Assembly: GCA_009995545.1 (NCBI GenBank)
Contig: JAACPI010000001.1
Span: 2,475 to 66,474, forward strand
Direction of reading: 5' to 3'
Source of the DNA: a bacterium
GTDB lineage: Bacteria; Patescibacteriota; WWE3; 2-01-FULL-39-13; JAACPI01
Length of the DNA stretch: 64,000 bases
Each line of letters opens with the position of its first letter. The first letter of the stretch is position 1. This document shows, one piece after another, positions 6,151-39,047 of this stretch. A program made the translations under genes and the position numbers. The notes beneath the pieces were generated by a model. The model was not told the origin of the DNA. It made no database searches and was given only the letters and a program-made list of their open reading frames with translations.

Positions 6151-6398
6151 TAGTTAAATTTTATCCTAAACTGGCTAATTGTCGACTGATTTAGGCATTA
6201 GAAATTCTAAATGCTGATCATTATATGGCTAGATGATCGGTCTAGATCTCACTTATTTCAGCTTAATCCTTTTGTTAGGCTTATATTTATAGTACTTATC
6301 ACTTGACAAAATACCCTATAATATGTATGATAGTGTTAATAATAAGATTTTTTCTTTGATATATAGGTTCTGCCTATGTTTAAAAGGATACAAAAACT

Positions 6399-7088
6399 AT
6401 GAAAAATTTGATTTTAACCAGTTTAATAGCGTTAGGATTTCTTGTAACAACTAGTGCTGTAAGTGCTAGACAGGTTTGTTTTACCCAATATGGCGGTGGA
6501 GAAACTTGTGTAAATGTTGAAGACAACTCTGATCTTGATGTTGAAAAATTAGTATCTAAAGAAGATATTTCTGACAGTTACAAAGATCACTTAAAGTCTA
6601 GTGAGCATATGTTTAATGCTGAAGATTACGTTTACTTTAGAATTAAAGTTAAAAACAAAGGTGACGTTGATTTAAAAGACGTTAAAGTAAAAGATGTTTT
6701 ACCTAACTTTGTTAAATACGACAAAACTTTAACTGATCAAGATTCTGATGTTAATGGTAACGAGGTTACTTACAATATTGGTTCGTTAAATGTTGGAAAC
6801 GATGTAGTAATAAAAGTTAGAACTAAAGTAGTAGAAGAGGCTGATCTACCAGCTGATGACAAAGTTTGTATAACAAACGTTGCGGAGGCTAAGGGTTATA
6901 GAAAAGACAATAATAAAAAGGAAAGCGATAGTGGCTATGCAAACTTCTGTATAGATCTACCCGCTGTACTTGGAACCCCTACTCAGTTACCTAAAGCAGG
7001 TCCAGAAAGCACTTTAGCTTTAATAGGAGCTTTAGTACTAAGTACCGGGGTAATTTACAACCGTAAAGTTGTAAAGTCAGTTAAATAA
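6399..7088 (+). CDS. Secreted cell-surface protein with an LPKAG sorting signal (likely sortase substrate)
   Basis: N-terminal signal peptide (MKNLILTSLIALGFLVTTSAVSA). The C-terminus is LPKAGPESTLALIGALVLSTGVIYNRKVVKSVK: motif, hydrophobic stretch, then basic tail. Confidence 0.6.
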   Translation: MKNLILTSLIALGFLVTTSAVSARQVCFTQYGGGETCVNVEDNSDLDVEKLVSKEDISDSYKDHLKSSEHMFNAEDYVYFRIKVKNKGDVDLKDVKVKDVLPNFVKYDKTLTDQDSDVNGNEVTYNIGSLNVGNDVVIKVRTKVVEEADLPADDKVCITNVAEAKGYRKDNNKKESDSGYANFCIDLPAVLGTPTQLPKAGPESTLALIGALVLSTGVIYNRKVVKSVK

Positions 7089-7156
7089 ATTTACCAGGCC
7101 GGACTAAATCCGGCCTTTAAATTCGCTACAAATTAGCGAAAATTTAATCATACACA

Positions 7157-7888
7157 ATGAAAGACAGAATAATATTTATAATCTCATTAATAATAGTTAT
7201 CCTTGGTATTTCTTATCTAGGTTACACCGCTTACAAATTTTTTAATCGTAAGGGTAATAATACTAATAACAATCAAAACAATAATAATATTATTGTAGAA
7301 AAAAAGGATATATTTAACGTTAAGGGAAGTACAAATAAAGACATTATTGGTGAAGATTTAAATAAAGGAGATCAGGTTAGTTTAAAAATTGAACTAGAAA
7401 ATTCCACAGACGAAAGAGCTGAATACAGCTACGAAGGAAGAATATATAAAGTAGAAGGTCTATACACCTTTCCTAATGTGGATTCACAGATTCCTATAAA
7501 TGTTTTTGCTTTACCTGTTACTTTAGACAAAAAAAGTGCTAATGAGTACGTTTACCCTTACACTGTCGAGGATTGTGGTGACTACTTTATAGCCATTGCT
7601 AGCAGTGATTACTGGAAACAGGGAAAAGGTAATATGGCCTATGGTTATTTTAATGCAACTTGTAATGAATCAAATGCTGTTAATTCAGGTCTAACAAGTT
7701 CAGACAATAATAGGGTTAAAAGCCCTCTGGCTGATAAAGTTTTGGGTGCAACCACAAAAGGTGGACAAACCGTAAGTGAATTACCTAAAGCAGGTCCAGC
7801 AGAGACTTTTAGCTTAATTGGTGCGGTACTACTTGGATTAGGTTTAATATATAATCTAAGGATTAATAAAACCGGATCTAGGATCTAG
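7157..7888 (+). CDS. Secreted or membrane protein with an LPKAG sorting signal (paralogous C-terminus to 6399-7088)
   Basis: N-terminal TM/signal segment and Asn-rich linker. The C-terminus is ELPKAGPAETFSLIGAVLLGLGLIYNLRINKTGSRI. Confidence 0.6.
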   Translation: MKDRIIFIISLIIVILGISYLGYTAYKFFNRKGNNTNNNQNNNNIIVEKKDIFNVKGSTNKDIIGEDLNKGDQVSLKIELENSTDERAEYSYEGRIYKVEGLYTFPNVDSQIPINVFALPVTLDKKSANEYVYPYTVEDCGDYFIAIASSDYWKQGKGNMAYGYFNATCNESNAVNSGLTSSDNNRVKSPLADKVLGATTKGGQTVSELPKAGPAETFSLIGAVLLGLGLIYNLRINKTGSRI

Positions 7889-14613: not shown

Positions 14614-17600
14614 TTACTCTGTGTCTACTGTCGTTCCGTCTGAAGTTTTAAGCCCTTCTAAGGGAGCGACTGCGTTATTATCGTCTTCTACACTTATTAT
14701 CATCCAACTAAACATTATGTCTTTTTCTGACTTTACTGGCACTTCAATCTTAAATTTTTCCCCCTTATATTTTTCTGTCACAGCTAATGGATATTCTACT
14801 AGACTTTCTGGGGTTACAATGACTAAGGAGTTTTCGGCAATTCTACTGGTGAGGATTTCTATTTCTTGGCTACCCGCTTTTATAGTAGCTCTTCCAGCTG
14901 TATATAGTTGGTTTGAGCTGTCTTTATTTGCATTGTCTGCCGTCGTCTTGTAGCTTTCTTCGGTTATACTATATACATCCGCAACGTACTTCTTGGCTTT
15001 TATAGTGCCATCTTTTTCTATAGTTATTAGTCCGTTAAATATATCTATATTTTCGGAATTGGCTGAATTTTGGATATATAATTTTGAGCCTAAGCTACTG
15101 ATTGACCCTTGTGCTGCATCTATCATTATTAACCCTATATTGACTTTATTTGTTATAGTTAAATTTTTAGATGTTGTAGATCCTATAACTTGTAAGTCTT
15201 TGTATGCTATTAGATCCGAGTCACTGGTTACGGCGTTTTTAATCTCCTCCCAAACCCAATTATTGTCTGCTGATGCATTTATTTGATTCCGTTTTATTTC
15301 ATTTAACGATATGTTAATGGCTGAATTTTGCTCAATAAATGAGACCCTTGTTTCTATTTCTTTAATTCTCTTTTTGTTGTCTTCTGTTTCTTTTTGACTA
15401 GCTTTTTCACTTAATAATGCATTGACGTCTTTAATTTTTGAATTTTGAATACCTAACGTGTCCGTTACATAATCTGGCAGGTATTTAAATTGATCTACTG
15501 TTTCCTTGGTATCCAGGATTATGCCTTGTTGCTGTTGAATTGCTTTTACCAACAAAGTGGGTATTCTTGAGTAGTTTATTCCCATGTAACCATCCACTTT
15601 ATTGGTAAACACTATTTCTGGGAATATTTTAGCTGTTTGTTGTGCAATCAAACCAATATCGGTATTACTCGGTTGTCCTATCCAGTTAAAGGTGTAGGTC
15701 TTAAGATTTAAAACCTTTTCCAAAGTTGCGTCGGTTAGGGGTGATAAGTTCTCTTTTAAACGTAGGTCTGAAGATGAGGTTGTCAGGGTACCGTCCGCGG
15801 TTAGGTTTAGGTCATTTGCATACGCCCCTGAGCTTACTGAGCTGAATCTAGCGTTACCTGCTACGTCTAATCTCTCTCCTGGTGTTGTACTTCCTACACC
15901 CAAATTTCCGTCATACCCAATTGATATTACCGTGTTTGTACCTGTTGTAGTTCCTGTACCTATTCTTAAGTAGTCGTTATTATTCCCCAAACTGTCATTT
16001 ACATTAGCCAACCAGAAATCCGTCTCTAGGGGTGTACTTGCATTAAATATCATTGACCCGTTATCTCTGTTAAGTGTGATATTTTCTGTAAAAGTATTAG
16101 TGCCTGAAAATGTTTGTGATGAGCCAAGTAGTGCAAAAGTTCCGCTTGCGTCTGGTAAATTGTAAGTTCTTGGAGCTGTTAGGTTTGCTATGGTGAGCAA
16201 TCCGCGACCATCTGGGTCATAAAAGTACAGGCTTTTCCCCGACGATCCTGTAGCAGTAAAAGCATCGCCGGAAGTGACATCTCCTATGTTACTTATTCCG
16301 CTTGCGTCGTTTATTGTCCCACATATCCAGTTGCTTCCATCCCAAACTAAAAAATTCGATGCGCTACATCCTGATATTAAACTTAAGCCATCCCCGTCTA
16401 CTTCTAGTCCACTGTAGGACTGTGTGTTTTTTAGGTTTTGGCTGGTGGGTAGCTTTATTGTTATGTTGTCTGCTCCTATGGTAAGACCGTTGCCTGGTCC
16501 TATATTTAAAGTTACGCTTCCGGAGGTACCTCCTCCAGTTAGACCACTCCCTGCAGTGACACCGGTTATATCACCTGACGAACCCACTGCAGTCACCTCT
16601 TTCCACTCTAGTGTGTTGCCGGTTTGCCATGTTAAGACGTAGTCTGCACCACCGGACTGCGTCGGTAGGGTGTAAAGTAAGTTATTTGTTAAACTAGAGG
16701 GTGCCTTAAATCCGGTGTAGTTAGAACCTCCGCTTGTACTCTCCAAAAGCCTGAATTCCCCCTGATTTCCACCATTCACTGTTCCTAAACTTATCCCTTG
16801 CGTAGTTTCAAACAGAATTGAATTACCGAGAGTTGTTGTGTTTGTCATTTTTGGTATATAATTTATCGTCCCTGAACCGTCAAAACCTGACTCACCAACT
16901 CCTAAATTTTGATCTATATTCTCTAACACCGAGCTTATATTTTGATCTATATTCTCTAACACTGACTGTAAATTGTTGCTTGTAGGTGAGATATTTGTGA
17001 AATCCTCTGTATACACCCCTATTAAAGAAGATCCAGAACTAGAAGTAACATAATCCGATAAATTAACTCCTCCTATGCTAATAGCGCCTCCTGAGGGCAC
17101 CTGTATGTTGGTTACTGTTGTTAAGGTTGGGGATAGGGCAAAACTTATTCTTTTAGCACTGGATCTTGTCACGAGTATATCATTACCACTTATAAAATCT
17201 AATGCGTCCCCGTCCTTTATAACGTCACCGGAAGACCCATCTATAGTAGTTTTCCAAGAAGTAAAACCTTTGCTAGTTTCAGCCAATGCTATCTCCCCTC
17301 CATTTATGGAGATACCCGTCCCTGCGACTAAATAGTTCTCAATAGCTTGGACAGTCTCGTCACTGATATTTGTAGATATAGTTGGATTTTGAGGGTCTCC
17401 TGTAATTGAAATACCCGACCCTGCATTTAATTTGTAAACTATATTGCTCGCCGTTATAGAACCTGTACCCAGATCTAATGTCTGGCCATAAGCATTTATG
17501 GGAATATTTATTTCAAGAACTGGCGAGGTATTTATGTCTTTTGCTGCCAAAACACTACCTTTTAGGTCTAGGTTATTCTCAGTAACCGGGTTAATGTTCC

Positions 17601-18171
17601 TAACCTGTTTGTTTTTAAATGAGTTAATAAAATTAAAGGTTCTGAGGTTATATTTATTTAGTGCTGTAATTATAAGAGGTAACATCAAAATACAGGTTGT
17701 TACATAGATATGAGTTATTCTTATATTAGGAGCTTTAATTTTGGGGGTATCAATACCCCATTGAATATCGTTTACTTTATTTATTAGGGTTTTAAAGGTT
17801 TTCGTGCGAACAGTTTTTGATTTGAGTTTTACTTTATTCTCTTCCTGTGACATTAAAGCAGCCTTCTTTCTTTCTTTAAAAGCTTTTACCTCCTCAAATT
17901 TCTGAATAATTTGTGGTATCTTTAAGCTTTCTTCTTCTTGTAGTTTGTGGATTTTAACAAGTTTGTCTACTACATAGTCTGGTAGATAAGAATCCACCTG
18001 TTTTCCAGAGTATTTCCGAATCTGGTGGGGTAGTAGTCCGACCTTTATAAGGTATCTTATGCGGTTTTGTTCTTTACCAAAGCCAAAATACACACCCTTA
18101 TCTTTAGCGAGTTGTATTACTTCTGAAGTCAGAATTAAATTGTAAGTCTTGGCAGACTGATCAGAGATCAT
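14614..18171 (-). CDS. Giant membrane-anchored fibre or adhesin-like protein: N-terminal MerR-like HTH, one TM helix, Gly/Ser/Thr-rich beta-fibre, internal peptidase S74 (intramolecular chaperone autoprocessing) domain, then an approximately 260-aa C-terminal extension
   Basis: The S74 signature TSSSDLRLKENLSPLTDATLEKVLNLKTYTFNW...GLIAQQTAKIFPEIV...GYMGINYSRIPTLLVKAIQ encoded around 15480-15780 matches the phage tail-spike/endosialidase chaperone consensus (SDxRLKxNI...IAQEV..P..V). The N-terminus (YNLILTSEVIQLAKDKGVYFGFGKEQNRIRYLIKVGLLP) is MerR-like. The TM helix is IYVTTCILMLPLIITAL. Confidence 0.7.
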   Translation of the reverse strand: MISDQSAKTYNLILTSEVIQLAKDKGVYFGFGKEQNRIRYLIKVGLLPHQIRKYSGKQVDSYLPDYVVDKLVKIHKLQEEESLKIPQIIQKFEEVKAFKERKKAALMSQEENKVKLKSKTVRTKTFKTLINKVNDIQWGIDTPKIKAPNIRITHIYVTTCILMLPLIITALNKYNLRTFNFINSFKNKQVRNINPVTENNLDLKGSVLAAKDINTSPVLEINIPINAYGQTLDLGTGSITASNIVYKLNAGSGISITGDPQNPTISTNISDETVQAIENYLVAGTGISINGGEIALAETSKGFTSWKTTIDGSSGDVIKDGDALDFISGNDILVTRSSAKRISFALSPTLTTVTNIQVPSGGAISIGGVNLSDYVTSSSGSSLIGVYTEDFTNISPTSNNLQSVLENIDQNISSVLENIDQNLGVGESGFDGSGTINYIPKMTNTTTLGNSILFETTQGISLGTVNGGNQGEFRLLESTSGGSNYTGFKAPSSLTNNLLYTLPTQSGGADYVLTWQTGNTLEWKEVTAVGSSGDITGVTAGSGLTGGGTSGSVTLNIGPGNGLTIGADNITIKLPTSQNLKNTQSYSGLEVDGDGLSLISGCSASNFLVWDGSNWICGTINDASGISNIGDVTSGDAFTATGSSGKSLYFYDPDGRGLLTIANLTAPRTYNLPDASGTFALLGSSQTFSGTNTFTENITLNRDNGSMIFNASTPLETDFWLANVNDSLGNNNDYLRIGTGTTTGTNTVISIGYDGNLGVGSTTPGERLDVAGNARFSSVSSGAYANDLNLTADGTLTTSSSDLRLKENLSPLTDATLEKVLNLKTYTFNWIGQPSNTDIGLIAQQTAKIFPEIVFTNKVDGYMGINYSRIPTLLVKAIQQQQGIILDTKETVDQFKYLPDYVTDTLGIQNSKIKDVNALLSEKASQKETEDNKKRIKEIETRVSFIEQNSAINISLNEIKRNQINASADNNWVWEEIKNAVTSDSDLIAYKDLQVIGSTTSKNLTITNKVNIGLIMIDAAQGSISSLGSKLYIQNSANSENIDIFNGLITIEKDGTIKAKKYVADVYSITEESYKTTADNANKDSSNQLYTAGRATIKAGSQEIEILTSRIAENSLVIVTPESLVEYPLAVTEKYKGEKFKIEVPVKSEKDIMFSWMIISVEDDNNAVAPLEGLKTSDGTTVDTE
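16907..16972 (-). repeat. Two-copy 33-nt tandem repeat inside the fibre gene (encodes SVLENIDQNI/SVLENIDQNL)
   Basis: ttttgatctatattctctaacac is repeated with a 33-nt period. Confidence 0.8.
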
Positions 18172-28696: not shown

Positions 28697-30253
28697 TTAT
28701 TTTTCCTTAGGTTCTTTTTTAAAAAAGTTTTTAAATTTACTTTCTTTTTTCTCTTCTTCCGGATTATTGTCCAGAACTACTTTTGTCTTATCAGCAGCCT
28801 CCCTGGCTTTTTTAGCTTCGAATTGAGCTCTTAATCCTATATCTGTTGTTCCTGTTGCCTCCTCGGTTTTTTTAGTTACATCTTCCAGGCTTCCTATAAA
28901 CAAGAATTCCTCTGGATCGTAACTATCAAATTTACCCTCTAAAATTGATTTTACATCTTTAACAGTTTGTTCCAGGGGTACTTTAACCCCGCTTTTTCCA
29001 GTTTGTGCCGCCACAACAAAAAAGTATTGTGTCATGTAGTTTTGTAATATTTTTGACTTTTTATATACTTTTGCGTTTTCATACGACAACTCTGACTCTC
29101 CTATTAAAGACACAATTCTTTCAAGGGTCGCTGACTTTTCCAAAAGAGATTTAGCTTCAATGTAGGTTTTATAATGATCCTCTCCTGCAAATTCAATATT
29201 CAAAGCTGCAGAATTTGACCCTAACAGATCGATTGCGGGCAACCTACCCTGTTGATAAATATCTCTTGAAAGCACTAGGTTGGTATCTAAATAAGGAAAA
29301 ATAGATCGAACTCCATAATCTGTTAAGTCGTCTGAAGGAACAAAAATTGCCTCGACACTCGTTATAATTGCTTTTTCCGTAGAGTAGAGCCTTTCATGCA
29401 CAGCTCCCATTTCTGATGTTAGTGTGGGTTGGTAACCATCCTCTGAGGGAATCACATTCATAAGTGTAGAGAGCTCGTTACCTGCTTGAGCAAACCTATA
29501 CATATTATCCATAAAAAACAAAACGTTTTTTTCTTTTATATCTCTAAAGTATTCCGAAATAGCCGCTGCAGCATAAGCCGTTCTAAATCTTACTGCAGGG
29601 TTTTCTCCCATTTGACCCAGTAACATAGCTGTTTTAGAAAGAACCTCTGCAGACTTTAAATTTTCATACAGCTCCTGTGCTTCCCTAGATCTTTCTCCAA
29701 CAGCGGCAAAAACAGAAACTGTGTCCGAACTATTTTTGTCTTTTCCCCCAACAACAATGTTGTTAATTAACTCTGTTAAAAGTACCGTTTTTCCAACACC
29801 AGCTCCTCCGAAAAGACCTGCTTTTCCCCCTTTAAAAAAAGGTGCAAAAAAATCTATAGCCTTAATTCCTGTCTCAAGTATTGTATTAGGGACCTGTACG
29901 ATATCCTTATCTAAATTTGATTTAAAAATTTCCTTATACTCGTCTGTCTTAATTTCTATATTGCTGTCGTGGGTGTTTCCAAAAACATCTATCACCCTAC
30001 CTAAAACATTTTCCGTGGCTGCTACTTTTAGCGTTTTTTCGGTGTTTATTACAACAGAGTTTCTACTCATGTCTTTTGATTCTGTTAGTAGTAGGCAGTA
30101 GAAGGTGTCGTTCGATGAGGATCTATATACTTCCAACTTTATTGTTCTATCAGCCTCAACTTCAAGTAAATCGTGTATATTGGGCTTTTCACCATCAAAC
30201 ATTATCTCTACAATTTGTCCTTTTATTGATATGACCTTACCTTTTGATTCCAT
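28697..30253 (-). CDS. atpD: F-type ATP synthase beta subunit with a roughly 50-aa Lys/Glu-rich C-terminal extension
   Basis: GGAGVGKT Walker A and the DELSEED-region equivalent. The tail is KKESKFKNFFKKEPKEK. Confidence 0.9.
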   Translation of the reverse strand: MESKGKVISIKGQIVEIMFDGEKPNIHDLLEVEADRTIKLEVYRSSSNDTFYCLLLTESKDMSRNSVVINTEKTLKVAATENVLGRVIDVFGNTHDSNIEIKTDEYKEIFKSNLDKDIVQVPNTILETGIKAIDFFAPFFKGGKAGLFGGAGVGKTVLLTELINNIVVGGKDKNSSDTVSVFAAVGERSREAQELYENLKSAEVLSKTAMLLGQMGENPAVRFRTAYAAAAISEYFRDIKEKNVLFFMDNMYRFAQAGNELSTLMNVIPSEDGYQPTLTSEMGAVHERLYSTEKAIITSVEAIFVPSDDLTDYGVRSIFPYLDTNLVLSRDIYQQGRLPAIDLLGSNSAALNIEFAGEDHYKTYIEAKSLLEKSATLERIVSLIGESELSYENAKVYKKSKILQNYMTQYFFVVAAQTGKSGVKVPLEQTVKDVKSILEGKFDSYDPEEFLFIGSLEDVTKKTEEATGTTDIGLRAQFEAKKAREAADKTKVVLDNNPEEEKKESKFKNFFKKEPKEK

Positions 30254-30256
30254 AAT

Positions 30257-31126
30257 TTAGTTCCAGAGACTCATTCCGGAGAGTCTTTGCAATTGTTTTT
30301 TATTTTCCAAAGATTTACCCACACTCCTATTTAGTCCAAGTAGATTCTTCATCCTATCTTCGGTGTTTTTAGAGGCCGTTTCCATAGCGTTAATTCTAGA
30401 TCCTAAACTAGCTAAGTTGGTTTCCGAAACAGTTTGTTTAAAAAGCGAAGCAAAAATTTGAACTTCAAAAAATCTAAGTACTTCTCTTAGTGAAGGCTCA
30501 AAAACATATTTGTTTCTTTTTTCTGTCTCTAAACTTTGCTGCAAAAGTTGTGCTGTTATATCAGACACCACTCCTTCTTGGTTAACCACGTTAAGAAGTT
30601 TTCCATGAAAAACATCGACATCTGCGTAGTTAACAATCTCTGAGATAATATCTTTTATGCTGCTCATGCCTTCACCCTTTTCCGGCAGGTCGTAGTAACT
30701 ATAACTTTTTTTAATGCCGTAGCTGTCATATAAAATCTTACCTCTTCTTCCTATAATTATGATATCCGAATTTCCATAATTAACTTTATCTATAAATTCT
30801 CTAAAAACTTTCTGCGAAATATCCCCACTTAGTCCAAAATTGGATGTCATTAAAACTGTGACTTTTTTTCCATTTTTATTTAAAGTAGAAAAAGTTATTT
30901 TTCCGGATCCCTTATTTTTTTCTATCAATTGGTCTATAACATCTTTATATGAGAATCTTACTTCTGCGTAAACTTCTAAAATTCTTTTTAGAAAGTCCCT
31001 TGTAGTTAAAACCCCGTCTCTTATCTTTTGCATTTCTAAAACGGCCAATTCTTCGTACGTTTGCACCACGGATTTCATAGTCTGAGTAAGGGCAATATCT
31101 TGGTGTATTTGTTTTAGTGAGTTCAT
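30257..31126 (-). CDS. atpG: F-type ATP synthase gamma subunit
   Basis: Position between atpA and atpD, length 289 aa and a conserved C-terminal helix. Confidence 0.8.
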   Translation of the reverse strand: MNSLKQIHQDIALTQTMKSVVQTYEELAVLEMQKIRDGVLTTRDFLKRILEVYAEVRFSYKDVIDQLIEKNKGSGKITFSTLNKNGKKVTVLMTSNFGLSGDISQKVFREFIDKVNYGNSDIIIIGRRGKILYDSYGIKKSYSYYDLPEKGEGMSSIKDIISEIVNYADVDVFHGKLLNVVNQEGVVSDITAQLLQQSLETEKRNKYVFEPSLREVLRFFEVQIFASLFKQTVSETNLASLGSRINAMETASKNTEDRMKNLLGLNRSVGKSLENKKQLQRLSGMSLWN

Positions 31127-31127
31127 T

Positions 31128-32672
31128 TTATGTTTTATCCAGCGATTCTACTTTATTACCAACAACTTCTTCAGTTACCTTAGGAATGCCCGCCCCTTTT
31201 AAACCCAGCATTTTAGTAAAGGTGTCTTTTTCCGCGAGTATGTTATTTGTTAGTTCCTTAAGCGTTTCTACCGTTAAAGCTTTTTGTACAAGGTTTTTAA
31301 ATTCTTTTTCTTCATATTTTGTAACTAACACTCTTCTTTTATCATCGACTTCACCGGTTGTTACTTCGTCGAACAAACCTGACCATACTAATCCAACTCC
31401 TATCTCTTGTATCTCTAAGGGAATAACTTCTTGATAACTTTGCTCAAATAAACTATATATTTTATTTCCTTTAGCTATTGTTTTTTTCACCTCTTCTGAG
31501 AGTTCAGCTCCAAAGTGTGAAAATTCTAAAGCTTTCTCGTACCTGATTAAAAAAGACATTATTTCCTGATTTATAGACCGGGAGAGCCTGCTTTGAGTTT
31601 GTTTTCCTACACGAGTGACTGATAAAAATATATTTACAGCAGGTCTTCTACCCTTGTTGAAAGTTTCACTATCAAACAATATGTGTCCATCAGTAATACT
31701 GATAAGGTTTGAAACTATAAAATCGGTTAAATTTCCTTGAATAGTTTCTGCAAGAGGTAGGCAGGTTATAGAGTTTTCTTTATCTCCCTTAGTTACAAAA
31801 TGCCCTCCCCGTTCTAAAAGCTTTGCATGTTTGTAAAAAATATCTCCTGGAAAGCTTTCCCTACCTGGAAACCTTTTTGCTATCAAGGAAATTTCTCGGT
31901 AGAATTTTGCATGTGTACTTAGATCATCAAAAATAACTACAACGTCATTTCCTTGTTCTCTAAAGTACTCTGCCAAAGACATTGCTGAATAGGGCGTTAA
32001 TTCAATTAGACTTGGGGAGTCCTGAGAACTTGATGCCACTACAACAGTGTTGTTGTCTAATTTATTAGTCTTCAAATAATTTACTACCCTTTTAATTTCC
32101 TCTTTTTTCTTACCTATTATTGCATATATAATGATATCCCCTAAGTTATGCTGTGACTTGAGTGTAGTTAAAACTGCGCTGGTCTTTCCTGTTTTTCTGT
32201 CCCCAACAATTAATTCTCTTTGGCCTTTACCCAGTGGTAATATTGTGTCTATTAAAGTTACACCAGTAATTAGTTGTCTAGTAATTCTACGACGCTGCAT
32301 TAATTTTAAAGGCTGCACTTCTATGCCTCTTTTTGTGGATGGGACTTTTGTACCTTTTGCAGTAAATAAATAATTTCCCAAAGGGTCAATGGTGTGGCCA
32401 AGGTACTCTTTGCCTACAGGAACTTGCAACTTTTCACCGGTTCTTGTTACCTGGATTCCAGGTTGTATGTCGTTTTGAGTGAAAATTATTATCTCAACTT
32501 TATCCCTAAGTAAAGACATTACTTGGCCAACTTCTTCATTTTCAAAGACTACTATTTCTCCGGTCATTGCTCCGGGAAGACCTGAACAAATGATAATAGG
32601 TGGGTTAACTTCTTCTACGACCCCGTACTCTTTTATTTTGTGGAGTGTTTGCTGGTAATTGTAGTCGGCCAT
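31128..32672 (-). CDS. atpA: F-type ATP synthase alpha subunit
   Basis: GDRKTGKT Walker A, 514 aa. Confidence 0.9.
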   Translation of the reverse strand: MADYNYQQTLHKIKEYGVVEEVNPPIIICSGLPGAMTGEIVVFENEEVGQVMSLLRDKVEIIIFTQNDIQPGIQVTRTGEKLQVPVGKEYLGHTIDPLGNYLFTAKGTKVPSTKRGIEVQPLKLMQRRRITRQLITGVTLIDTILPLGKGQRELIVGDRKTGKTSAVLTTLKSQHNLGDIIIYAIIGKKKEEIKRVVNYLKTNKLDNNTVVVASSSQDSPSLIELTPYSAMSLAEYFREQGNDVVVIFDDLSTHAKFYREISLIAKRFPGRESFPGDIFYKHAKLLERGGHFVTKGDKENSITCLPLAETIQGNLTDFIVSNLISITDGHILFDSETFNKGRRPAVNIFLSVTRVGKQTQSRLSRSINQEIMSFLIRYEKALEFSHFGAELSEEVKKTIAKGNKIYSLFEQSYQEVIPLEIQEIGVGLVWSGLFDEVTTGEVDDKRRVLVTKYEEKEFKNLVQKALTVETLKELTNNILAEKDTFTKMLGLKGAGIPKVTEEVVGNKVESLDKT

Positions 32673-32675
32673 AGG

Positions 32676-33104
32676 TTATTTTTTAGCTGCGCTAAGAGAG
32701 TAGTCCGCAAATTTGCCTTGATATTCTATGAGAGCCCCACCTAATATTTTTGGATTTGTATTTATTTCTAAAATTGTGGGTTGGTTAGTTCTTTCCGCAA
32801 TGAAACTGCTTATTCTTCTAACCGAGTGTGTTGAAGGGACATAGGCTAATGTTAATACAGCTGTGGGGGTGTTTTCGATTTCTTCTAATAATTTCGCTAT
32901 TCCCAATTTAATATTTTCTGTGCTTGTAATTTTTAAATTTTGCTCAGAAAAAAAATCTTTAAACCCCGCTTTCTCCTCGTGAGAAAAAATACTATCCAGT
33001 GTTTTATCTACATCATTTCCAATGTCAAAGATAGATCTATTCAAGGCAGATAATTTATTTTTAATCCTTACAGTGTCTTCTGTAGTTAGAATGTTGGGTA
33101 ACAT
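32676..33104 (-). CDS. atpH: F-type ATP synthase delta (OSCP) subunit, short form
   Basis: Operon position. The C-terminus (ILGGALIEYQGKFADYSLSAAKK) is OSCP-like. Confidence 0.6.
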   Translation of the reverse strand: MLPNILTTEDTVRIKNKLSALNRSIFDIGNDVDKTLDSIFSHEEKAGFKDFFSEQNLKITSTENIKLGIAKLLEEIENTPTAVLTLAYVPSTHSVRRISSFIAERTNQPTILEINTNPKILGGALIEYQGKFADYSLSAAKK

Positions 33105-33107
33105 AAT

Positions 33108-33725
33108 CTATTTAAATAGCCCTTCTTTTTCAGCTTTGATAATGGCCTGTTCTACTAGTGTTTCGTGATCTTCTACTGTTATATTAGCTGGCAGCAGTTC
33201 CCTTATTATATTTTCAATTCTCTCTGAAATATTACCCTTGACTCTTTCTTTTTCGCTTAATTTAAAATCCTCTAGCTCACTAGTAAAGGATTTTATAATA
33301 TTGTTGATCTGCTCTTGAACTGTACTTACGTTTTTTGCCATTTGGGTATTAATTTTTTCGCCGTATTCCTCTAACTTAAGATCCCCATTCTGCTCTAGTT
33401 TTTGAGTGAATTTTTTTACAGAGTCGCTTAATTCTTGTGTGGCTTTTTTGTAGTACTTCTCATTTTCAACACTTATTTGGGTAACTGTTTTTTTAAAGTT
33501 GGCATCGGTTTGTTCTTGTAATTTTTTAGAAACTTTTTTTGCATTAGCTATTATTTCGTCGTGTTTTTCGTAAGCTTTTTCTAATATTTTATCTACCTTA
33601 TTTCTAACTTTTTTTATGTCTTTATCTTTATTAAAAACCTTATTTTGAACAACTAACCAGTAGATTAAAAAAAGTATTAGCAGCGCAAAGTTAAATAGGC
33701 TAAGAATTATGTTTAGTGTATCCAT
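33108..33725 (-). CDS. atpF: F-type ATP synthase b subunit
   Basis: N-terminal TM helix followed by a long charged helix. First gene of the cluster. Confidence 0.6.
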   Translation of the reverse strand: MDTLNIILSLFNFALLILFLIYWLVVQNKVFNKDKDIKKVRNKVDKILEKAYEKHDEIIANAKKVSKKLQEQTDANFKKTVTQISVENEKYYKKATQELSDSVKKFTQKLEQNGDLKLEEYGEKINTQMAKNVSTVQEQINNIIKSFTSELEDFKLSEKERVKGNISERIENIIRELLPANITVEDHETLVEQAIIKAEKEGLFK

Positions 33726-34095: not shown

Positions 34096-34893
34096 ATGAA
34101 TTCATCAAAAACAGTTTTCTTTATATCTTTTCTAGTTTTTGTACTCACTTCTATTACTACTCTTTTTATTCCTAAAGTACTCGCCCAAGAACAAGGTCTA
34201 GGTGTTGCCAGGTATATAGGTATTTCAGATGTTGAGCCTGGAGATATTATTTCGCTTTATGAAAATAAGTATGATAAAAGTAGGATATTCTACGATCCCG
34301 GTGTAATTGGTGTAGTTGTAAATAAACCTGCCTTAGCAATAAGTTCAAACGACACTGAAGGGAAGGTAGCTATTTTAGGTATTGGTCAGGCCCAGGTTAA
34401 GGTTAGTACCGTAAATGGAAAAATAAATGCTGGAGACGTTATAACTACTTCTGAAACTCCCGGAATTGGTGCAAAGTTGGTCAGGTCTGGCTTTGCAATA
34501 GGTATTGCAAACGAAAGTTATTCTGAGGAGGGTAGCGGTAAAGTAGGTATTATTAGTGTTGATTTGAATAGACAGTATGCCTATTCTTCAAATGATTCTG
34601 TAACTCAAAAGCTGCAAAGAAGTGTTACCGACGTTTTGGTTTTAAGTGAGATTGCTAGTTACGACTCTCCCACCCAAGTTCTGAGGTATTTAATGGCCGG
34701 AATTGTTTTATTAGGCAGTGTTATTTTGGGCATAAGCACCTTTGGTAAAATTGCTAGAACTGGTGTAGAGGCCATAGGTAGAAATCCTTTAGCCGGTAAA
34801 TCTATTAGTTTAGGTATAGCTTTTAATGTTTTAATAACATTGGCAATTATTGGGGCTGGGGTAGGCTTGGGGTACCTGATAATGATTTTCTAA
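34096..34893 (+). CDS. Secreted protein with a C-terminal two-helix membrane hairpin
   Basis: Signal peptide (…KVLAQEQ). The C-terminus is ...GIVLLGSVILGISTFGKIARTGVEAIGRNPLAGKSISLGIAFNVLITLAIIGAGVGLGYLIMIF. Confidence 0.4.
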   Translation: MNSSKTVFFISFLVFVLTSITTLFIPKVLAQEQGLGVARYIGISDVEPGDIISLYENKYDKSRIFYDPGVIGVVVNKPALAISSNDTEGKVAILGIGQAQVKVSTVNGKINAGDVITTSETPGIGAKLVRSGFAIGIANESYSEEGSGKVGIISVDLNRQYAYSSNDSVTQKLQRSVTDVLVLSEIASYDSPTQVLRYLMAGIVLLGSVILGISTFGKIARTGVEAIGRNPLAGKSISLGIAFNVLITLAIIGAGVGLGYLIMIF

Positions 34894-34912: not shown

Positions 34913-35599
34913 ATGGGGACAATAATAAAAAATAAACTTTTCCATCAGTTTTTTCTGTCCTACCTGCTTATAATTGGCGGTATTACAATGATAGTACTGG
35001 GGTTTGGCAGTACAATAATTAGTGAAGTAAATTTTTATAAAGACAAGGTTAGTGGGGTAAAGTACTACTTTAAAGATAAGCAGGAAGTCGCGTCCTCAAC
35101 CCCCGTGTCTTCTTTTGGAGGTTTAATAAAAAGGCAATTAGTCCCTTTAGTTCCAGTCAACAATGACTTTTCAATTATTATAGAAAAAATTGGAGTCAAT
35201 TCCCCTGTGATTAAAAATGTAAGCGTGACTGAGGAAAGCGAGTATTTTGAGGCTTTAAAAAAGGGTGTGGCCCACGCTAAAGGTAAAAGCCTGCCAGGAG
35301 AAACTGGAAACGTTTATTTGTTTGCTCATTCAAGTATTGAGTTTTGGAAAATGGGTCCCTATGCCACTGTATTTAATCAGCTACGGAGACTGGAAAACGG
35401 AGATAAAATCAACTTAATTTATAATAATTCTGTTTATAACTACGAGGTTTTGGATAAAAATATTGTTAGTGGTTTTGATACATCACCCTACGAAACCCTA
35501 TATAATTCTAAATCAGTTTTAACGCTACAAACCTGTGATCCACCGGGTACTACGCTAAACCGACTAATAGTTCGAGCTGTTCTAGTAACTAGCAAGTAA
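34913..35599 (+). CDS. Sortase (transpeptidase)
   Basis: N-terminal TM anchor, His motif YLFAHSS, catalytic-Cys motif LTLQTC and a downstream Arg (NRLIVRAVLV). Confidence 0.65.
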   Translation: MGTIIKNKLFHQFFLSYLLIIGGITMIVLGFGSTIISEVNFYKDKVSGVKYYFKDKQEVASSTPVSSFGGLIKRQLVPLVPVNNDFSIIIEKIGVNSPVIKNVSVTEESEYFEALKKGVAHAKGKSLPGETGNVYLFAHSSIEFWKMGPYATVFNQLRRLENGDKINLIYNNSVYNYEVLDKNIVSGFDTSPYETLYNSKSVLTLQTCDPPGTTLNRLIVRAVLVTSK

Positions 35600-35668
35600 A
35601 TTAAACACCTTTTCAAATTGTTTAATATCGACCATTTGGCTTAATTGGGGTAAAATAAGCAGGTTTAT

Positions 35669-35744
35669 GCCCGCGTAGCTCAGGGGATAGAGCACAGGTT
35701 TCCTAAACCTGGTGTCGCAGGTTCAAGTCCTGCCGTGGGCGCCA
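35669..35744 (+). tRNA. tRNA-Arg (anticodon CCT)
   Basis: Full cloverleaf with anticodon loop TTCCTAA, T-loop TTCAAGT, 7-bp acceptor stem and encoded CCA. Confidence 0.85.
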
Positions 35745-35820
35745 CACTGATAACAATTTAAATAAAGAAGATTTTATTTACAACTAGTCACTGATTATTA
35801 GCTAATATATACTTAAAGAT

Positions 35821-36981
35821 ATGAAAGGTTTTCAACGCAAGGTCCTTCCTATAATACTTACTTTAACTACAGTCAGTTTGCTTACTACCCTGAGTATGTT
35901 TTATGCTAAGGGGTACCGTTTTATTGTAAATCCTGAGTCCGAAGAAACTATTTCTATAGAGGTAAAGAAAACAGGAATATTGGCTGTACGCTCTATTCCT
36001 GATACCGCAAAAATATTGCTGAATGGTGAGTTAAAGGATGTAACAAATACAACTTTAAGTTCCCTTACCCCGGGAAAATACTTGTTGCAGGTAGAAAAAG
36101 CTGGATACGAGCCTTGGAAGAAGGATATTGAGGTATTCGAAGACTTAGTAACAGACATTACTGCTACCCTAGTGCTAAAAGGCGGGGGATTAAACCCGTT
36201 AACAAATGGGGGGGTGTTAAAATTCCAGCTTTCAAATAACGGTGAACACATAGCGTATACTTCTAAAGGAGAGGAAAAATCAGGACTCTGGGTTTTACAG
36301 CTTTCTAACCGTCCAGTTAATATATTTCAAACCAACAAAAAGTTAGTGGCTGTAGATCAGCCAAATTACAGTTTTTCCGATGCTACGGACATAGTCTGGT
36401 CTCCTGATGACCAAAAAATTATGCTTAAATTTACCGATAATTTTTACATGTTAGTAGATTTATCTAAGCCTGCCTTACAAGCTCCTGTAACTTACACTAA
36501 CCCACAAGATGTTTTTACAGCCTGGAAAGAGACAGAACTTAAAAACAAAAGATCCAGAATAATATCCTTAGAAGTACCTGCTGAACTTACGGATATTGCC
36601 ATCACGGGAAACTCCACTTGGTCCCCGGATGGTGAAAAATTTTACTATCTTCAAAATACTGATGACAACAAAACTGTTGTAAAAGTCTATGATTTTAAAA
36701 CTCCCTTGCCCATAGGTGAAAGTAGATATAACGAGCCTTTAATTGTAAATTCAGTAGATCTTCCAAAGATATTCTGGTTTAGCGATAGTGAACACTTGCT
36801 CCTAGTCAAAGGTGACAGCGTGAGTTTTGTAAGAATTGATGGATCTAATTTTGTAGAGGTATTTAATGGTTCTATTATAGGGGATAAGGCTTATCCAACT
36901 CCTGGTGGAGATAGGATTGTTATATTATCAAAATTTAAGTCAGATACTCCTGAAAACCTATATACTATTAGCATAAGGTAG
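35821..36981 (+). CDS. Membrane-anchored PEGA-domain protein with a TolB-like beta-propeller region
   Basis: TM helix, a PEGA-like segment (ILAVRSIPDTAKILLNGE...LTPGKYLLQVEKAGYEPWKKDIEV) and WSPDG propeller-like repeats. Confidence 0.5.
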   Translation: MKGFQRKVLPIILTLTTVSLLTTLSMFYAKGYRFIVNPESEETISIEVKKTGILAVRSIPDTAKILLNGELKDVTNTTLSSLTPGKYLLQVEKAGYEPWKKDIEVFEDLVTDITATLVLKGGGLNPLTNGGVLKFQLSNNGEHIAYTSKGEEKSGLWVLQLSNRPVNIFQTNKKLVAVDQPNYSFSDATDIVWSPDDQKIMLKFTDNFYMLVDLSKPALQAPVTYTNPQDVFTAWKETELKNKRSRIISLEVPAELTDIAITGNSTWSPDGEKFYYLQNTDDNKTVVKVYDFKTPLPIGESRYNEPLIVNSVDLPKIFWFSDSEHLLLVKGDSVSFVRIDGSNFVEVFNGSIIGDKAYPTPGGDRIVILSKFKSDTPENLYTISIR

Positions 36982-37067
36982 TTGAAATCGAGTGGTCATT
37001 ATTTAGTGTCTATTAAGAAAGAATAGGGAAATCAATACCAAGTTAGGTGGGAGAAATTTAACTCTCT

Positions 37068-38123
37068 TCACTTTATCAAACTTCTTTCAAAGTACCCTAC
37101 ATTATTCATAACACTGGACAGGCCCCTAATTACGCAATACAAAGGGTCCTCTGCTCTTACTGCAGGTATATTAGTTTGTTCTGTAATGTAGTCATCTAAA
37201 CCGCTTAAAAGAGCTGTACCACCACTTAGTACCATACCTTTATCTAAAATATCGCTGCTTAACTCCGGAGAAGTGTTTTCCAAGACTGCCTGAATTCCCT
37301 TTATTATTTCTTTTAGGGGTGCTTGAATAGCTTCTACCACCTCATTAGTGGTTAAAATAATATTTTTTGGCATTCCGGAAGCGCTGTTTCTCCCTCTAAT
37401 TTCAACTTTCTGCTGCACATTTTCTAATACTTTTACAGCAGAACCAATCTTTATTTTTATACGTTCCGCTGTTTGCTCTCCAATTACTAAACCATGTTTT
37501 TTTCTTACGTAATTAATTATCGCTAGATCTATTTTGTTTCCTGCAGTCCTTACACTTTTATAACTTACCATACCTCCCAAAGACACCACTGCAACTTCTG
37601 TTGTACCACCCCCACTATTTACAATCATGTTTCCGGTTGGGTTAAAAATGGGAAGTTCTGCACCAATTGCTGCGGCCAGAGGTTCTGGTATTAAGTAAGA
37701 ATTTTTCACACCAGCACTTTCGAGCGCGTCCACAACTGCACGGTACTCTACAGAACTAGAACCAGCCGGGACAGCAATAGTAATATCGGGTTTAATTAAC
37801 CTGACGCGTCCTAGTGATTTATTTATAAAATAATGAAGCATTTGTTCAGTAAGCGTAAAATTTGCAATTGAACCGTCCATCAAAGGGCGTACTGCAATTA
37901 GATTTTGAGGTGTTTTGCCTATCATATTGTAGGCCTCTTTGCCTATCGCTAAAACCTCTTCAGTGTCTTCTACTACAGCTAAAACGGTAGGTTCGTTTAA
38001 TAAAATTTCTCCTTTTTTATCACAAATAACGCTGTTTGCTGTGCCTAGGTCTATGGCAATGCTAGGATTTAGCAGATTTGCTAGGTTAATTTTACTAAAA
38101 TCAAATACTTGAGTTTTAATCAT
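37068..38123 (-). CDS. mreB: Rod-shape-determining actin homologue MreB
   Basis: IAIDLGTANSVI phosphate-1 motif and actin-fold length of 351 aa. Confidence 0.85.
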   Translation of the reverse strand: MIKTQVFDFSKINLANLLNPSIAIDLGTANSVICDKKGEILLNEPTVLAVVEDTEEVLAIGKEAYNMIGKTPQNLIAVRPLMDGSIANFTLTEQMLHYFINKSLGRVRLIKPDITIAVPAGSSSVEYRAVVDALESAGVKNSYLIPEPLAAAIGAELPIFNPTGNMIVNSGGGTTEVAVVSLGGMVSYKSVRTAGNKIDLAIINYVRKKHGLVIGEQTAERIKIKIGSAVKVLENVQQKVEIRGRNSASGMPKNIILTTNEVVEAIQAPLKEIIKGIQAVLENTSPELSSDILDKGMVLSGGTALLSGLDDYITEQTNIPAVRAEDPLYCVIRGLSSVMNNVGYFERSLIK

Positions 38124-38231
38124 GGTTTTTATCTAATTAGGTAATTGTTATTGTAAGTGCGTTTAAATTATGGTTATGTCTACTGCTATAGATACATTAT
38201 AATGTAATTAATATTAGTCTATGGTAATAAA

Positions 38232-39047
38232 ATGAAATTTTACGATAATTTAAATATTCTAAATATCCCTACTTCTACTATACCAAAAAAAGACGTTTTA
38301 GATTTAGTAAAAAAAGAATTACTTAAGAGTAGTAGTCCCTTATTTATAGCAACTATAAATCCTTCTTTTTTAGTTAAAGCTCAAAAAAATGCAGAATTTC
38401 TAGAAATACTAAGTCATAAGACTAGCCTGAATGTACCAGATGGCATAGGTATACAATTGGCAGGGGAGTATCTTAGCAAAATAAAAAATAAGAATATTTT
38501 TGGAAGACTTGGCACAGGTTTAAACTTAGGAATAAAGCATACATTTTTAAAAGCACCTTTTACTGTTCTTACAAATAAAATTACAGGGGTAGATCTTACC
38601 CAAAATGCTTTGCAAATATGCGAGCGGAGTAATAAAAAAGTATTGTTAGTTTTAAGAAAGGGCGGTTTAACCTCTGCAAAAACAGTACACAGTTATTTAA
38701 AAAATAATTACCCAAAACTTAAATTTATAATTCTAGAATTTACTTTAGATCAAAAAATTTCACTTAATAAAGTAGGTCACTTTGCTTTACTACTGTGTGG
38801 CTTGGGTGAATTTACTCAAGAAAAAGTTATTTTAAATAGTTTAAATTTAGTTAAACCCAACGTCGCTATAGGTATAGGCGGTACATTTGATGTTCTAACC
38901 TCCAATAAGAGCAACAGTGAATCTTTAAGCCAGTATGGTTTAAGCTGGTTGTCTAGATTAATTCAAAATCCTAAACGCATTAAAAAAATTTTAACGTCGG
39001 TTTTTGTATTTCCTTTTTTAGTTTTTGTAAATTATTCCCGCAATTAA
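38232..39047 (+). CDS. Possible WecB/TagA/CpsF-family (GT26) glycosyltransferase
   Basis: VPDGIGIQLAGEYL motif and a length of about 270 aa. The call is moderate to weak. Confidence 0.45.
   Translation: MKFYDNLNILNIPTSTIPKKDVLDLVKKELLKSSSPLFIATINPSFLVKAQKNAEFLEILSHKTSLNVPDGIGIQLAGEYLSKIKNKNIFGRLGTGLNLGIKHTFLKAPFTVLTNKITGVDLTQNALQICERSNKKVLLVLRKGGLTSAKTVHSYLKNNYPKLKFIILEFTLDQKISLNKVGHFALLLCGLGEFTQEKVILNSLNLVKPNVAIGIGGTFDVLTSNKSNSESLSQYGLSWLSRLIQNPKRIKKILTSVFVFPFLVFVNYSRN

What the first reader, a model, noticed from the sequence alone, without database searches (positions are those of the whole stretch)
6399..7888. Non-canonical LPKAG cell-wall sorting signals on two adjacent secreted proteins, with a sortase elsewhere in the window
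Both proteins end in …LPKAGP(E/A)(S/E)T(L/F)(A/S)LIGA… followed by a hydrophobic stretch and a basic tail. This is the tripartite architecture of sortase substrates, but with LPKAG instead of LPxTG or LAxTG.

The sortase at 34913-35599 has the His, TLxTC and Arg motifs. This defines a substrate motif for this lineage's sortase and flags the two proteins (one with a strongly Asn-rich linker) as covalently anchored or processed surface proteins.
Basis: partly seen in the sequence, partly recalled or inferred. Interest (0 to 1): 0.5.

Follow-up and report, generated by a model that had tools for sequence, protein, structure and literature searches.

The report
LPKAG sortase anchors in a CPR bacterium
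Two neighbouring surface-protein genes of an uncultured ultra-small (CPR/Patescibacteria) bacterium end in a real sortase anchoring signal in which the usual LPxTG reads LPKAG. This variant is already known from Staphylococcus aureus SasF, so the finding is correct but fairly ordinary.

Summary
ORFs 6399-7088 and 7157-7888 both end in LPKAGP, a 16-residue hydrophobic stretch and a basic tail. The ORF at 34913-35599 is a sortase with invariant His139, Cys208 and Arg217.

LPKAG is expected 0.02 times in the window's proteins. It occurs twice, both times 33-35 residues from a C-terminus.

Comparative data support a sortase signal:
- In orthologues of protein 1, the same alignment column reads LPKTG, LPTTG or LPVTG.
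- Three Microgenomates-type genomes have a sortase homologue directly upstream of that orthologue.
- The two proteins share only their last 37 residues.
- Both genes carry LPKAG in seven related genomes. One nested relative has reverted to LPKTG and passes NCBI's LPXTG_anchor model, whereas the LPKAG tails fall 3-4 bits short.

The variant is not new. S. aureus SasF uses LPKAG and is wall-associated, and sortases are already known to be common in CPR.

The sortase fits none of the A-F class models. It lies in a conserved cluster of sortase, PEGA/beta-propeller protein, MreB and TagA.

A genome-wide count of the motif could not be made.

Verdict: a new member of a known kind, of modest interest.

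The parts
6303..6331 (+). Promoter-like site (TTGACA-17-TATGAT, 11 of 12) upstream of protein 1. No terminator-like site lies on this strand between the two genes, so the pair is probably one transcription unit.
   Evidence: This is a consensus match only; the number of such sites in the region is not above the shuffled expectation.
6399..7088 (+). Protein 1, 229 aa. It has a Sec signal peptide (aa 1-23, ...AVSA|RQ), a conserved CFTQYGGGETC motif, one CLIPPER/DUF11 CnaA-like Ig domain (aa 69-174), four invariant Cys, and a C-terminal sorting signal.
   Evidence: Pfam PF01345 E=1.5e-12. The AF2 model has pLDDT 77; Foldseek hits include 9IFR CLIPPER, the Cna collagen-binding domain and the pilins SpaD and PilB. 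There are 24 orthologues.
6987..7001 (+). LPKAG pentapeptide of protein 1 (aa 197-201). The predicted scissile bond is Ala200-Gly201.
   Evidence: L197, P198 and G201 are invariant in 24 orthologues; position 4 is Ala in the near clade and Thr in the far clade.
7011..7085 (+). Hydrophobic segment TLALIGALVLSTGVIY (aa 205-220) and basic tail NRKVVKSVK (aa 221-229) of protein 1.
   Evidence: AF2 predicts helix 203-227. The region aligns to TIGR01167 LPXTG_anchor positions 1-30 at 11.5 bits, below the 15.9 cut-off.
7157..7888 (+). Protein 2, 243 aa. It has a nearly invariant N-terminal TM segment (aa 5-29), an Asn-rich linker, a roughly 100-aa beta-rich domain with two invariant Cys (C140, C169), a linker, and a C-terminal sorting signal. 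No Pfam family matches.
   Evidence: The AF2 model has pLDDT 51 and was not usable.
7781..7795 (+). LPKAG pentapeptide of protein 2 (aa 209-213).
   Evidence: ELPKAGP is invariant in the six aligned family members, and LPKAG is also kept in the L025, L026 and L108 neighbours.
7805..7885 (+). Hydrophobic segment TFSLIGAVLLGLGLIY (aa 217-232) and basic tail NLRINKTGSRI of protein 2.
   Evidence: TIGR01167 scores 12.8 bits at aa 208-237. hhalign matches this region to the protein 1 signal with 94% probability.
34913..35599 (+). Sortase, 228 aa. It has an N-terminal membrane anchor and a catalytic domain with His139, Cys208 (TLQTC) and Arg217. It is the only sortase locus in the window.
   Evidence: Pfam PF04203 at 79.4 bits. 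NCBIfam sortase_fam passes at 49.5 against 39.35, but no class A-F model reaches its cut-off. PDB alignments are, invariant residues, and the single-locus check.
35821..36981 (+). PEGA plus PD40/TolB-like beta-propeller membrane protein. It is a conserved neighbour of this sortase family. Its role is unknown and it has no sorting signal.
   Evidence: Pfam PEGA E=4.7e-12. It is present next to the sortase in 54 of 80 metagenome loci.

Best explanation
The two adjacent, probably co-transcribed genes encode surface proteins of a CPR/Patescibacteria bacterium related to WWE3. Each carries a genuine sortase-dependent cell-wall sorting signal in which the P1 Thr of LPXTG is Ala (LPKAG).

Inferred mechanism, by analogy with characterised sortases:
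1. Sec exports the proteins.
2. The C-terminal hydrophobic segment and basic tail hold them in the membrane.
3. Cys208 of the genome's housekeeping sortase (34913-35599) attacks the Ala-Gly bond and forms an acyl-enzyme.
4. An amine of a peptidoglycan precursor resolves the acyl-enzyme, leaving the protein covalently attached to the wall.

Protein 1 is a small CnaA-like (CLIPPER) Ig-domain protein of the kind found in Gram-positive adhesin stalks and pilins. Protein 2 is a lineage-restricted beta-rich protein of unknown fold.

Shown here: the signal architecture, its positional homology to LPxTG, its conservation, the intact sortase, and gene linkage between sortase and substrate in relatives.

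Inferred only: cleavage at Ala-Gly, the acceptor, and that this particular sortase is the enzyme.
For: 1. The tripartite signal is on both proteins at the stated coordinates and is far beyond chance.
2. In the 24-sequence alignment of protein 1 orthologues, L, P and G of the motif are invariant. Position 4 is Ala in 15 near relatives and Thr in 9 others: LPKTG, LPTTG and LPVTG. GTDB genomes from WWE3, Saccharibacteria, Shapirobacteria, Gottesmanbacteria and Roizmanbacteria show LPTTG, LPKTG, LPVTG, MPKTG, QPKTG, TPVTG, MPVTG, VPSSG and LPVAG in the same place.
3. In L014, L015 and L018 a sortase 39-45% identical to the window's lies directly upstream on the same strand, 17-455 bp away. In L016 it lies 5 kb away.
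4. Proteins 1 and 2 are unrelated except for the last 37 columns (hhalign 94%, 49% identity), as expected for a shared sorting module.
5. Both genes carry LPKAG in seven genomes whose protein 1 copies are only about 50-85% identical: the window, L107, L025, L026, L108, L110 and L111.
6. The curated LPXTG_anchor model TIGR01167 aligns to both tails at the right place (11.5 and 12.8 bits against a cut-off of 15.9). It passes for the 71%-identical orthologue P0004, which has LPKTG (17.8 bits).
7. The sortase has the Pfam domain and the His/Cys/Arg residues.
8. Peptidoglycan machinery is present: a LysM/M23 peptidase, MreB, MreC and PBP2.
9. There is precedent. SasF with LPKAG is cell-wall associated in S. 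aureus (PMC3398289), and 2 of the 21 S. aureus SrtA substrates are LPxAG (PMC3436756).
Against: - There is no biochemical evidence.
- Neither tail reaches the curated LPXTG_anchor cut-off.
- The sortase is 28 kb away and not linked to substrates. None of 80 related sortase loci has either family nearby.
- The rest of the genome could not be read, so another sortase or other motifs cannot be excluded.
- Protein 2 has a highly conserved N-terminal TM segment without an obvious signal-peptidase site. It may stay membrane-anchored at its N-terminus, which is unusual for a classical sortase substrate.
Confidence: 0.78

Rival explanations
1. The T-to-A change inactivated the signal. The proteins would then be simple C-terminally membrane-anchored (tail-anchored) surface proteins that are no longer cleaved by sortase.
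For: Both tails score below the LPXTG_anchor cut-off. Thr at P1 makes specific contacts in class A sortase structures (PMC9520033).
Against: LPKAG, including the normally free position 3, is completely fixed on two unrelated proteins in seven genomes, while the flanking residues diverge; a decayed motif should drift. SasF with LPKAG is wall-associated. LPVAG arose independently in L018 next to a sortase gene.
Confidence: 0.1
2. The sortase polymerises the CLIPPER protein, possibly together with protein 2, into a covalent pilus-like fibre rather than only anchoring monomers.
For: Protein 1 has a CnaA-like fold shared with sortase-assembled pilins such as SpaD, PilB and the C. perfringens major pilin. 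It has an invariant Lys50. The two substrate genes form a conserved cassette. Sortase and substrate genes are adjacent in some lineages.
Against: The sortase does not reach the class C cut-off (52 against 160 bits). It has no C-terminal membrane anchor and no recognisable lid motif. Lys50 is more simply the intramolecular isopeptide Lys of the CLIPPER fold, together with invariant Asn160 and near-invariant Asp99. Protein 1 contains no YPK-type pilin motif. Only one sortase was found in the window.
Confidence: 0.08
3. The signal is processed by a different C-terminal sorting enzyme (exosortase, archaeosortase or rhombosortase type) and the sortase is irrelevant.
For: None was found beyond the generic tripartite layout shared by all such signals.
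Against: The motif aligns column for column with LPxTG in orthologues. Sortase genes are adjacent to those orthologues. No PEP, PGF or GlyGly signature is present.
Confidence: 0.02

Closest known systems
S. aureus SasF (LPKAG) and SasD (LPAAG, recalled from memory), the LPxAG substrates of sortase A
   Same: The pentapeptide is identical (LPKAG), followed by a hydrophobic segment and a basic tail. SasF is cell-wall associated despite the non-classical motif (PMC3398289). LPxAG is counted among SrtA substrates (PMC3436756). Streptococcus dysgalactiae SDEG_0714 and SDEG_0805 are also annotated with LPKAG (PMC3027156).
   Different: In Firmicutes, LPxAG is a minority variant beside many LPxTG substrates of a class A sortase. 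Here it is the only form seen on both known substrates across seven genomes, the organism is a CPR bacterium, and the sortase is unclassified.
Canonical LPXTG cell-wall sorting signal (NCBIfam TIGR01167 LPXTG_anchor)
   Same: The tripartite layout and position at the extreme C-terminus are the same, and the model aligns end to end. The orthologue P0004 passes the model.
   Different: Ala replaces Thr at P1. Both window tails are sub-threshold (11.5 and 12.8 bits against 15.9), so standard annotation calls them hypothetical proteins.
Sortase classes A-F (NCBIfam class models; Pfam PF04203)
   Same: It has the sortase fold domain, the His-Cys-Arg residues, the TLxTC signature, an N-terminal membrane anchor, and a stand-alone 'housekeeping' genomic position.
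   Different: No class model reaches its cut-off. The best scores are the LPxTATN-specific class D model at 52 against 140, class C at 52 against 160, class D at 47 against 165, class E at 43 against 160 and class F at 19 against 166. It belongs to the CPR-enriched sortase family noted by Meheust et al. (PMC6744442). It has a conserved PEGA/beta-propeller-MreB-TagA neighbourhood.
CLIPPER (DUF11, PF01345) CnaA-like isopeptide domains of fibrillar adhesins and pilins
   Same: Protein 1 has a Pfam match above the cut-off and a predicted Ig-like fold that hits 9IFR. It has conserved Lys, Asp and Asn candidates and disulfide-forming Cys, and it is combined with a sorting signal.
   Different: It has a single domain in a 229-aa protein rather than tandem repeats in a long stalk. 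It has no adhesive head domain. The isopeptide triad is inferred from conservation only.

Membership tests
LPXTG-type sortase sorting signal | Pentapeptide LPXTG about 30-40 residues from the C-terminus | tested here: not met
   The motif is LPKAG, with Ala rather than Thr at position 4. The same column is LPxTG in 9 of 24 orthologues.
LPXTG-type sortase sorting signal | Hydrophobic segment followed by a positively charged tail at the extreme C-terminus | tested here: met
   Each protein has 16 hydrophobic residues followed by a tail with 4 (protein 1) or 3 (protein 2) Lys/Arg. AF2 predicts a terminal helix at 203-227 in protein 1.
LPXTG-type sortase sorting signal | Score at or above the curated cut-off of NCBIfam TIGR01167 LPXTG_anchor (15.9 bits) | tested here: not met
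   The window tails score 11.5 and 12.8 bits and are aligned at the correct place. Orthologue P0004 (LPKTG) scores 17.8 and passes.
LPXTG-type sortase sorting signal | N-terminal secretion signal | tested here: inconclusive
   Protein 1 has a typical signal peptide ending VSA|RQ, judged by eye. Protein 2 has a conserved TM-like N-terminus with no clear cleavage site. No signal-peptide predictor was available.
LPXTG-type sortase sorting signal | A sortase encoded in the same genome | tested here: met
   The sortase is on the same contig at 34913-35599. Sortase genes are adjacent to orthologues in L014, L015 and L018.
LPXTG-type sortase sorting signal | Cleavage between positions 4 and 5 and amide linkage to peptidoglycan | not testable with these tools
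   This needs biochemistry or mass spectrometry.
Sortase (Pfam PF04203, MEROPS C60) | Sortase domain above the gathering score | tested here: met
   79.4 bits against 26.6. NCBIfam TIGR01076 scores 49.5 against 39.35.
Sortase (Pfam PF04203, MEROPS C60) | Catalytic His, Cys (TLxTC) and Arg | tested here: met
   H139, C208 and R217 are invariant in A4 and align with solved sortases.
Sortase classes A-F | Score at or above the curated class cut-off | tested here: not met
   All class models are far below their cut-offs, and the class A and B models are not listed at all. No reference phylogeny was built.
CLIPPER / DUF11 isopeptide domain | Pfam PF01345 above the gathering score | tested here: met
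   48.3 bits against 24.6. TIGR01451 scores 25.4 against 24.
CLIPPER / DUF11 isopeptide domain | Lys-Asn intramolecular isopeptide bond with a catalytic Asp | tested here: inconclusive
   K50 and N160 are invariant and D99 is nearly invariant, and all three lie in predicted strands.

The most novel reading that the evidence does not exclude
The sortase of this WWE3-related CPR clade may have a genuinely shifted, narrow specificity for L-P-K-A-G, with Lys at P2 and Ala at P1 both required. It would serve a dedicated two-gene substrate cassette. This would be the first defined substrate motif for the CPR-specific sortase family, which sits in a conserved cell-envelope cluster of sortase, PEGA/beta-propeller protein, MreB and TagA. 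It would also be a naturally orthogonal enzyme for sortase-mediated ligation.
Probability: 0.15. Interest if true: 0.55.

Novelty: new member of a known kind. Interest (0 to 1): 0.3.

Why it matters
The finding gives the first concrete candidate substrates and a motif for the sortase family that is widespread in CPR/Patescibacteria. No characterised substrate for that family was found in the searched literature.

It also shows that standard LPXTG models miss these proteins by a few bits, so surface-protein inventories of CPR genomes are likely under-counted. Relaxing the pattern to xPx[T/A/S]G plus a TM segment and basic tail would recover them.

The proteins themselves are plausible wall-anchored surface components of an episymbiotic cell: a small isopeptide-type Ig domain and a lineage-specific partner. 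The mechanism is the ordinary sortase one, and the LPKAG variant is already documented in staphylococci and streptococci.

Tried and rejected
- **Profile of the 21 C-terminal signals (A3) in the search for homologous proteins.** After two parameter errors, the search returned one junk hit. Locally the same profile scores members at 44-66 bits, so the word index was the limit.
- **The same profile against 1.84 billion representatives.** Only members of the two families and one repetitive false positive were listed, because only E<=0.001 is reported. It therefore cannot say how many other protein families carry LPKAG tails.
- **Walking along the 275-kb contig to sample more of the genome.** Only about 6 kb beyond the window end was seen, with no further signals.
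- **80 metagenome loci with sortase homologues, searched for adjacent substrates.** There was no CLIPPER or protein 2 homologue and only one plausible substrate, L099 with LPATG. Sortase-motif co-variation could therefore not be tested.
- **Clade-specific sortase residues.** K125, E143, K146, M147, Q156 and Y193 were listed, but they are only a lead.
- **Structure and remote homology.** The AF2 model of protein 2 was too poor (pLDDT 51) for a fold search. PDB profile searches for both proteins gave nothing useful.
- **The CPR pilus preprint** (10.64898/2026.03.03.709456) describes donor-strand-exchange Pam pili, not sortase substrates, so it is not relevant here.
- **Gene conversion between the two tails.** They share 19 identical nucleotides, but these are single codons for LPKAGP in an AT-rich genome, so this was not pursued.

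Full report
**Observation**

- Protein 1 (6399-7088, 229 aa) ends TQLPKAGPES-TLALIGALVLSTGVIY-NRKVVKSVK.
- Protein 2 (7157-7888, 243 aa) ends SELPKAGPAE-TFSLIGAVLLGLGLIY-NLRINKTGSRI.
- The ORF at 34913-35599 is a sortase. It matches Pfam PF04203 at 79.4 bits against a cut-off of 26.6. It has His139 (LFAHS), Cys208 (TLQTC) and Arg217. These are invariant among five CPR sortases and align with the catalytic residues of solved sortases.

From the composition of the window's 51 ORFs, LPKAG is expected 0.02 times. It occurs twice, both 33-35 residues from a C-terminus. No other LP.[TAS]G occurs in these ORFs.

**What the organism is**

The window has 36.5% G+C. The same sequence lies on contigs of up to 275 kb in several metagenome assemblies held by ENA and JGI, and NCBI labels the protein only as hypothetical, from 'bacterium'.

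The nearest species representatives in GTDB are only about 41% identical for protein 1. They are WWE3, Saccharibacteria and Microgenomates-group MAGs. Rho is 68% identical to a WWE3 MAG that keeps the order CLIPPER gene then rho.

The organism is therefore a CPR/Patescibacteria bacterium related to WWE3. It has peptidoglycan-related genes: a LysM/M23 peptidase, two MreB copies, MreC and PBP2.

**What the two proteins are**

Protein 1 has these features:
- a typical signal peptide (…AVSA|RQ);
- an invariant CFTQYGGGETC motif;
- one CLIPPER/DUF11 domain (PF01345, E=1.5e-12).

CLIPPER is a CnaA-like Ig domain with an intramolecular isopeptide bond, typical of adhesin stalks and pilins (PMC12617251). 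The AF2 model (pLDDT 77) is a beta-sandwich whose Foldseek matches include 9IFR (CLIPPER), the Cna collagen-binding domain and the pilins SpaD and PilB. Invariant K50 and N160, near-invariant D99 and four invariant Cys fit an isopeptide bond plus two disulfides. This mapping is inferred from conservation, not verified.

Protein 2 has no Pfam family. Its parts are a nearly invariant N-terminal TM segment, a non-conserved low-complexity linker that is Asn-rich only in this species, a beta-rich domain of about 100 aa with two invariant Cys, and the signal. Its AF2 model was too weak to use.

The two families are homologous only in the last 37 columns (hhalign 94%). That is what a transferable sorting module looks like.

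A strong promoter-like site lies upstream of protein 1, and no terminator-like site lies on the + strand between the genes. This suggests one operon, but it rests on a consensus match only.

**Is LPKAG a sortase signal?** Four independent lines of evidence say yes.

1. *Positional homology.* In 24 orthologues of protein 1, the L, P and G are invariant. Position 4 is Ala in 15 near relatives and Thr in the rest: LPKTG, LPTTG and LPVTG. GTDB genomes add MPKTG, QPKTG, TPVTG, MPVTG, VPSSG and an independent LPVAG.
2. *Gene linkage.* In L014, L015 (Shapirobacteria) and L018, a sortase 39-45% identical to the window's lies 17-455 bp upstream of the orthologue on the same strand. In L016 (Gottesmanbacteria) it lies 5 kb away. 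In a rough NJ tree these sortases fall among the other members of the family.
3. *Conservation.* Both genes carry LPKAG in seven genomes: the window, L107, L025, L026, L108, L110 and L111. Protein 1 identity across them falls to about 50% and Rho identity to 75%, and the residues just after the Gly vary (P, G, A, N, S, T).
4. *The curated model.* TIGR01167 LPXTG_anchor aligns to both tails in the right place at 11.5 and 12.8 bits, below the 15.9 cut-off. It passes at 17.8 bits for P0004, the 71%-identical orthologue with LPKTG.

P0004 is nested among LPKAG relatives. Its tail is closest to those of L110 and L111. The Ala-to-Thr reversal is therefore recent, which suggests that this clade's sortase accepts either residue at P1.

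**The sortase and its surroundings**

NCBIfam's generic sortase model passes, but none of the class models does. The best scores are about 52 bits against cut-offs of 140-160. PDB sequence matches are weak (E about 1e-6) and spread over classes A, C and D. The enzyme has an N-terminal anchor and no C-terminal one.

There is a single sortase locus in the window. It is not next to a substrate.

It lies in a conserved cluster of sortase, PEGA/PD40 beta-propeller membrane protein, MreB, WecG/TagA and an HTH protein. Among 80 metagenome loci with homologues (37-66% identity):
- the PEGA gene is present in 54;
- MreB is present in 32;
- WecG is present in 23.

None of those loci carries either substrate family. 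This is the layout of a housekeeping sortase tied to envelope growth rather than a pilus operon.

**Mechanism**

The mechanism is inferred from established sortase biochemistry.
1. Sec exports the proteins.
2. The hydrophobic segment and basic tail retain them in the membrane.
3. Cys208 attacks the Ala-Gly bond.
4. The acyl-enzyme is resolved by a peptidoglycan-precursor amine.

The steps shown here are the signal, its homology to LPxTG, the intact enzyme and the linkage in relatives. Cleavage, the acceptor and the enzyme-substrate pairing are inferred.

**Comparison with what is known**

LPKAG is not new.
- S. aureus SasF carries LPKAG and is cell-wall associated (PMC3398289).
- S. aureus has 19 LPxTG and 2 LPxAG SrtA substrates (PMC3436756).
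- S. dysgalactiae proteins are annotated with LPKAG (PMC3027156).
- Sortases are known to be present in more than half of CPR genomes and in nearly all Microgenomates (PMC6744442).

What is new is modest:
- candidate substrates and a motif for the CPR sortase family, for which I found no described substrate;
- fixation of the Ala variant, and of Lys at the 'x' position, on both substrates of a clade;
- the wider drift of the motif (xPx[T/A/S]G) in this family.

**Limits**

- the signal-profile searches were uninformative;

In about 160 kb of sequence from the LPKAG clade, the only sorting signals detected are these two genes per genome.

**Verdict**

It is a new member of a known kind, with interest 0.3.

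Noticed in passing
window 34913-40489; loci L027-L106: There is a conserved CPR gene cluster: sortase, PEGA plus PD40/TolB-like beta-propeller membrane protein, MreB, WecG/TagA glycosyltransferase and an HTH protein. Among 80 sortase-homologue loci the PEGA gene is present in 54, MreB in 32 and WecG in 23. In 42 of the 59 loci that could be evaluated, the PEGA gene starts less than 600 bp downstream of the sortase (31 convergent, 11 on the same strand). I did not find this sortase-PEGA pairing described.
   Followed up: partly
window 34096-34893 (+) and 28697-33725 (-): A 265-aa secreted protein ends in a two-helix hairpin resembling ATP synthase subunit c (NF005521, E=5.5e-4, loop GRNPLAG), after a weak RnfG/FMN_bind-like region. 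It lies divergently next to an F-type ATP synthase operon (b, delta, alpha, gamma, beta) that has no a or c subunit gene beside it. A homologue also lies near the sortase in L027.
   Followed up: partly
window 7157-7250 (protein 2, aa 1-31): The N-terminal hydrophobic segment of protein 2 (MKDRxIFIxSLxxVxxGxxYLGYTAYKFFxR) is nearly invariant across the family. This is much more conserved than a disposable signal peptide, and it has no clear AxA cleavage site. The protein may be held at both ends, by the membrane at the N-terminus and the wall at the C-terminus.
   Followed up: no
window 6984-7004 and 7778-7798: The two sorting-signal coding regions share 19 identical nucleotides (TTACCTAAAGCAGGTCCAG), with identical codons for LPKAGP. 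This could reflect codon bias or past gene conversion.
   Followed up: no
window 14614-18171 (-): A 1185-aa protein has a C-terminal Peptidase_S74 domain, the intramolecular chaperone of phage tail-spike/endosialidase type. It is conserved at the same place in related genomes (L001-L006, L107).
   Followed up: no
L026 1-8891: A glycosyltransferase gene block of about 4.3 kb (DUF218, a 115-aa protein, GtrA, GT4, GT4/GT2, GT2) appears twice as a mirror-image inverted duplication on the contig. It is either a real palindromic duplication or an assembly artefact.
   Followed up: no
L014 and L018 (GTDB records titled 'uncultured Gammaproteobacteria bacterium'): Both contigs carry the CPR-type gene pair of sortase plus CLIPPER protein. 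The record titles are probably taxonomic mislabels of Patescibacteria MAGs.
   Followed up: no
window 35669-35744 (+): A tRNA-Arg(CCT) gene sits between the sortase and the PEGA gene. Three further tRNAs lie at 54261-55872: Thr-TGT, Thr-GGT and Trp-CCA.
   Followed up: no
sortase aa 125, 143, 146, 147, 156, 193 (window 34913-35599): Six residues are shared by the four sortases of the window's clade (window, L027, L028, L029) but are rare or absent in 57 other family members: K125, E143, K146, M147, Q156 (Leu in 53 of 57) and Y193 (Leu in 52 of 57). They are possible specificity determinants, but this is untested.
   Followed up: partly
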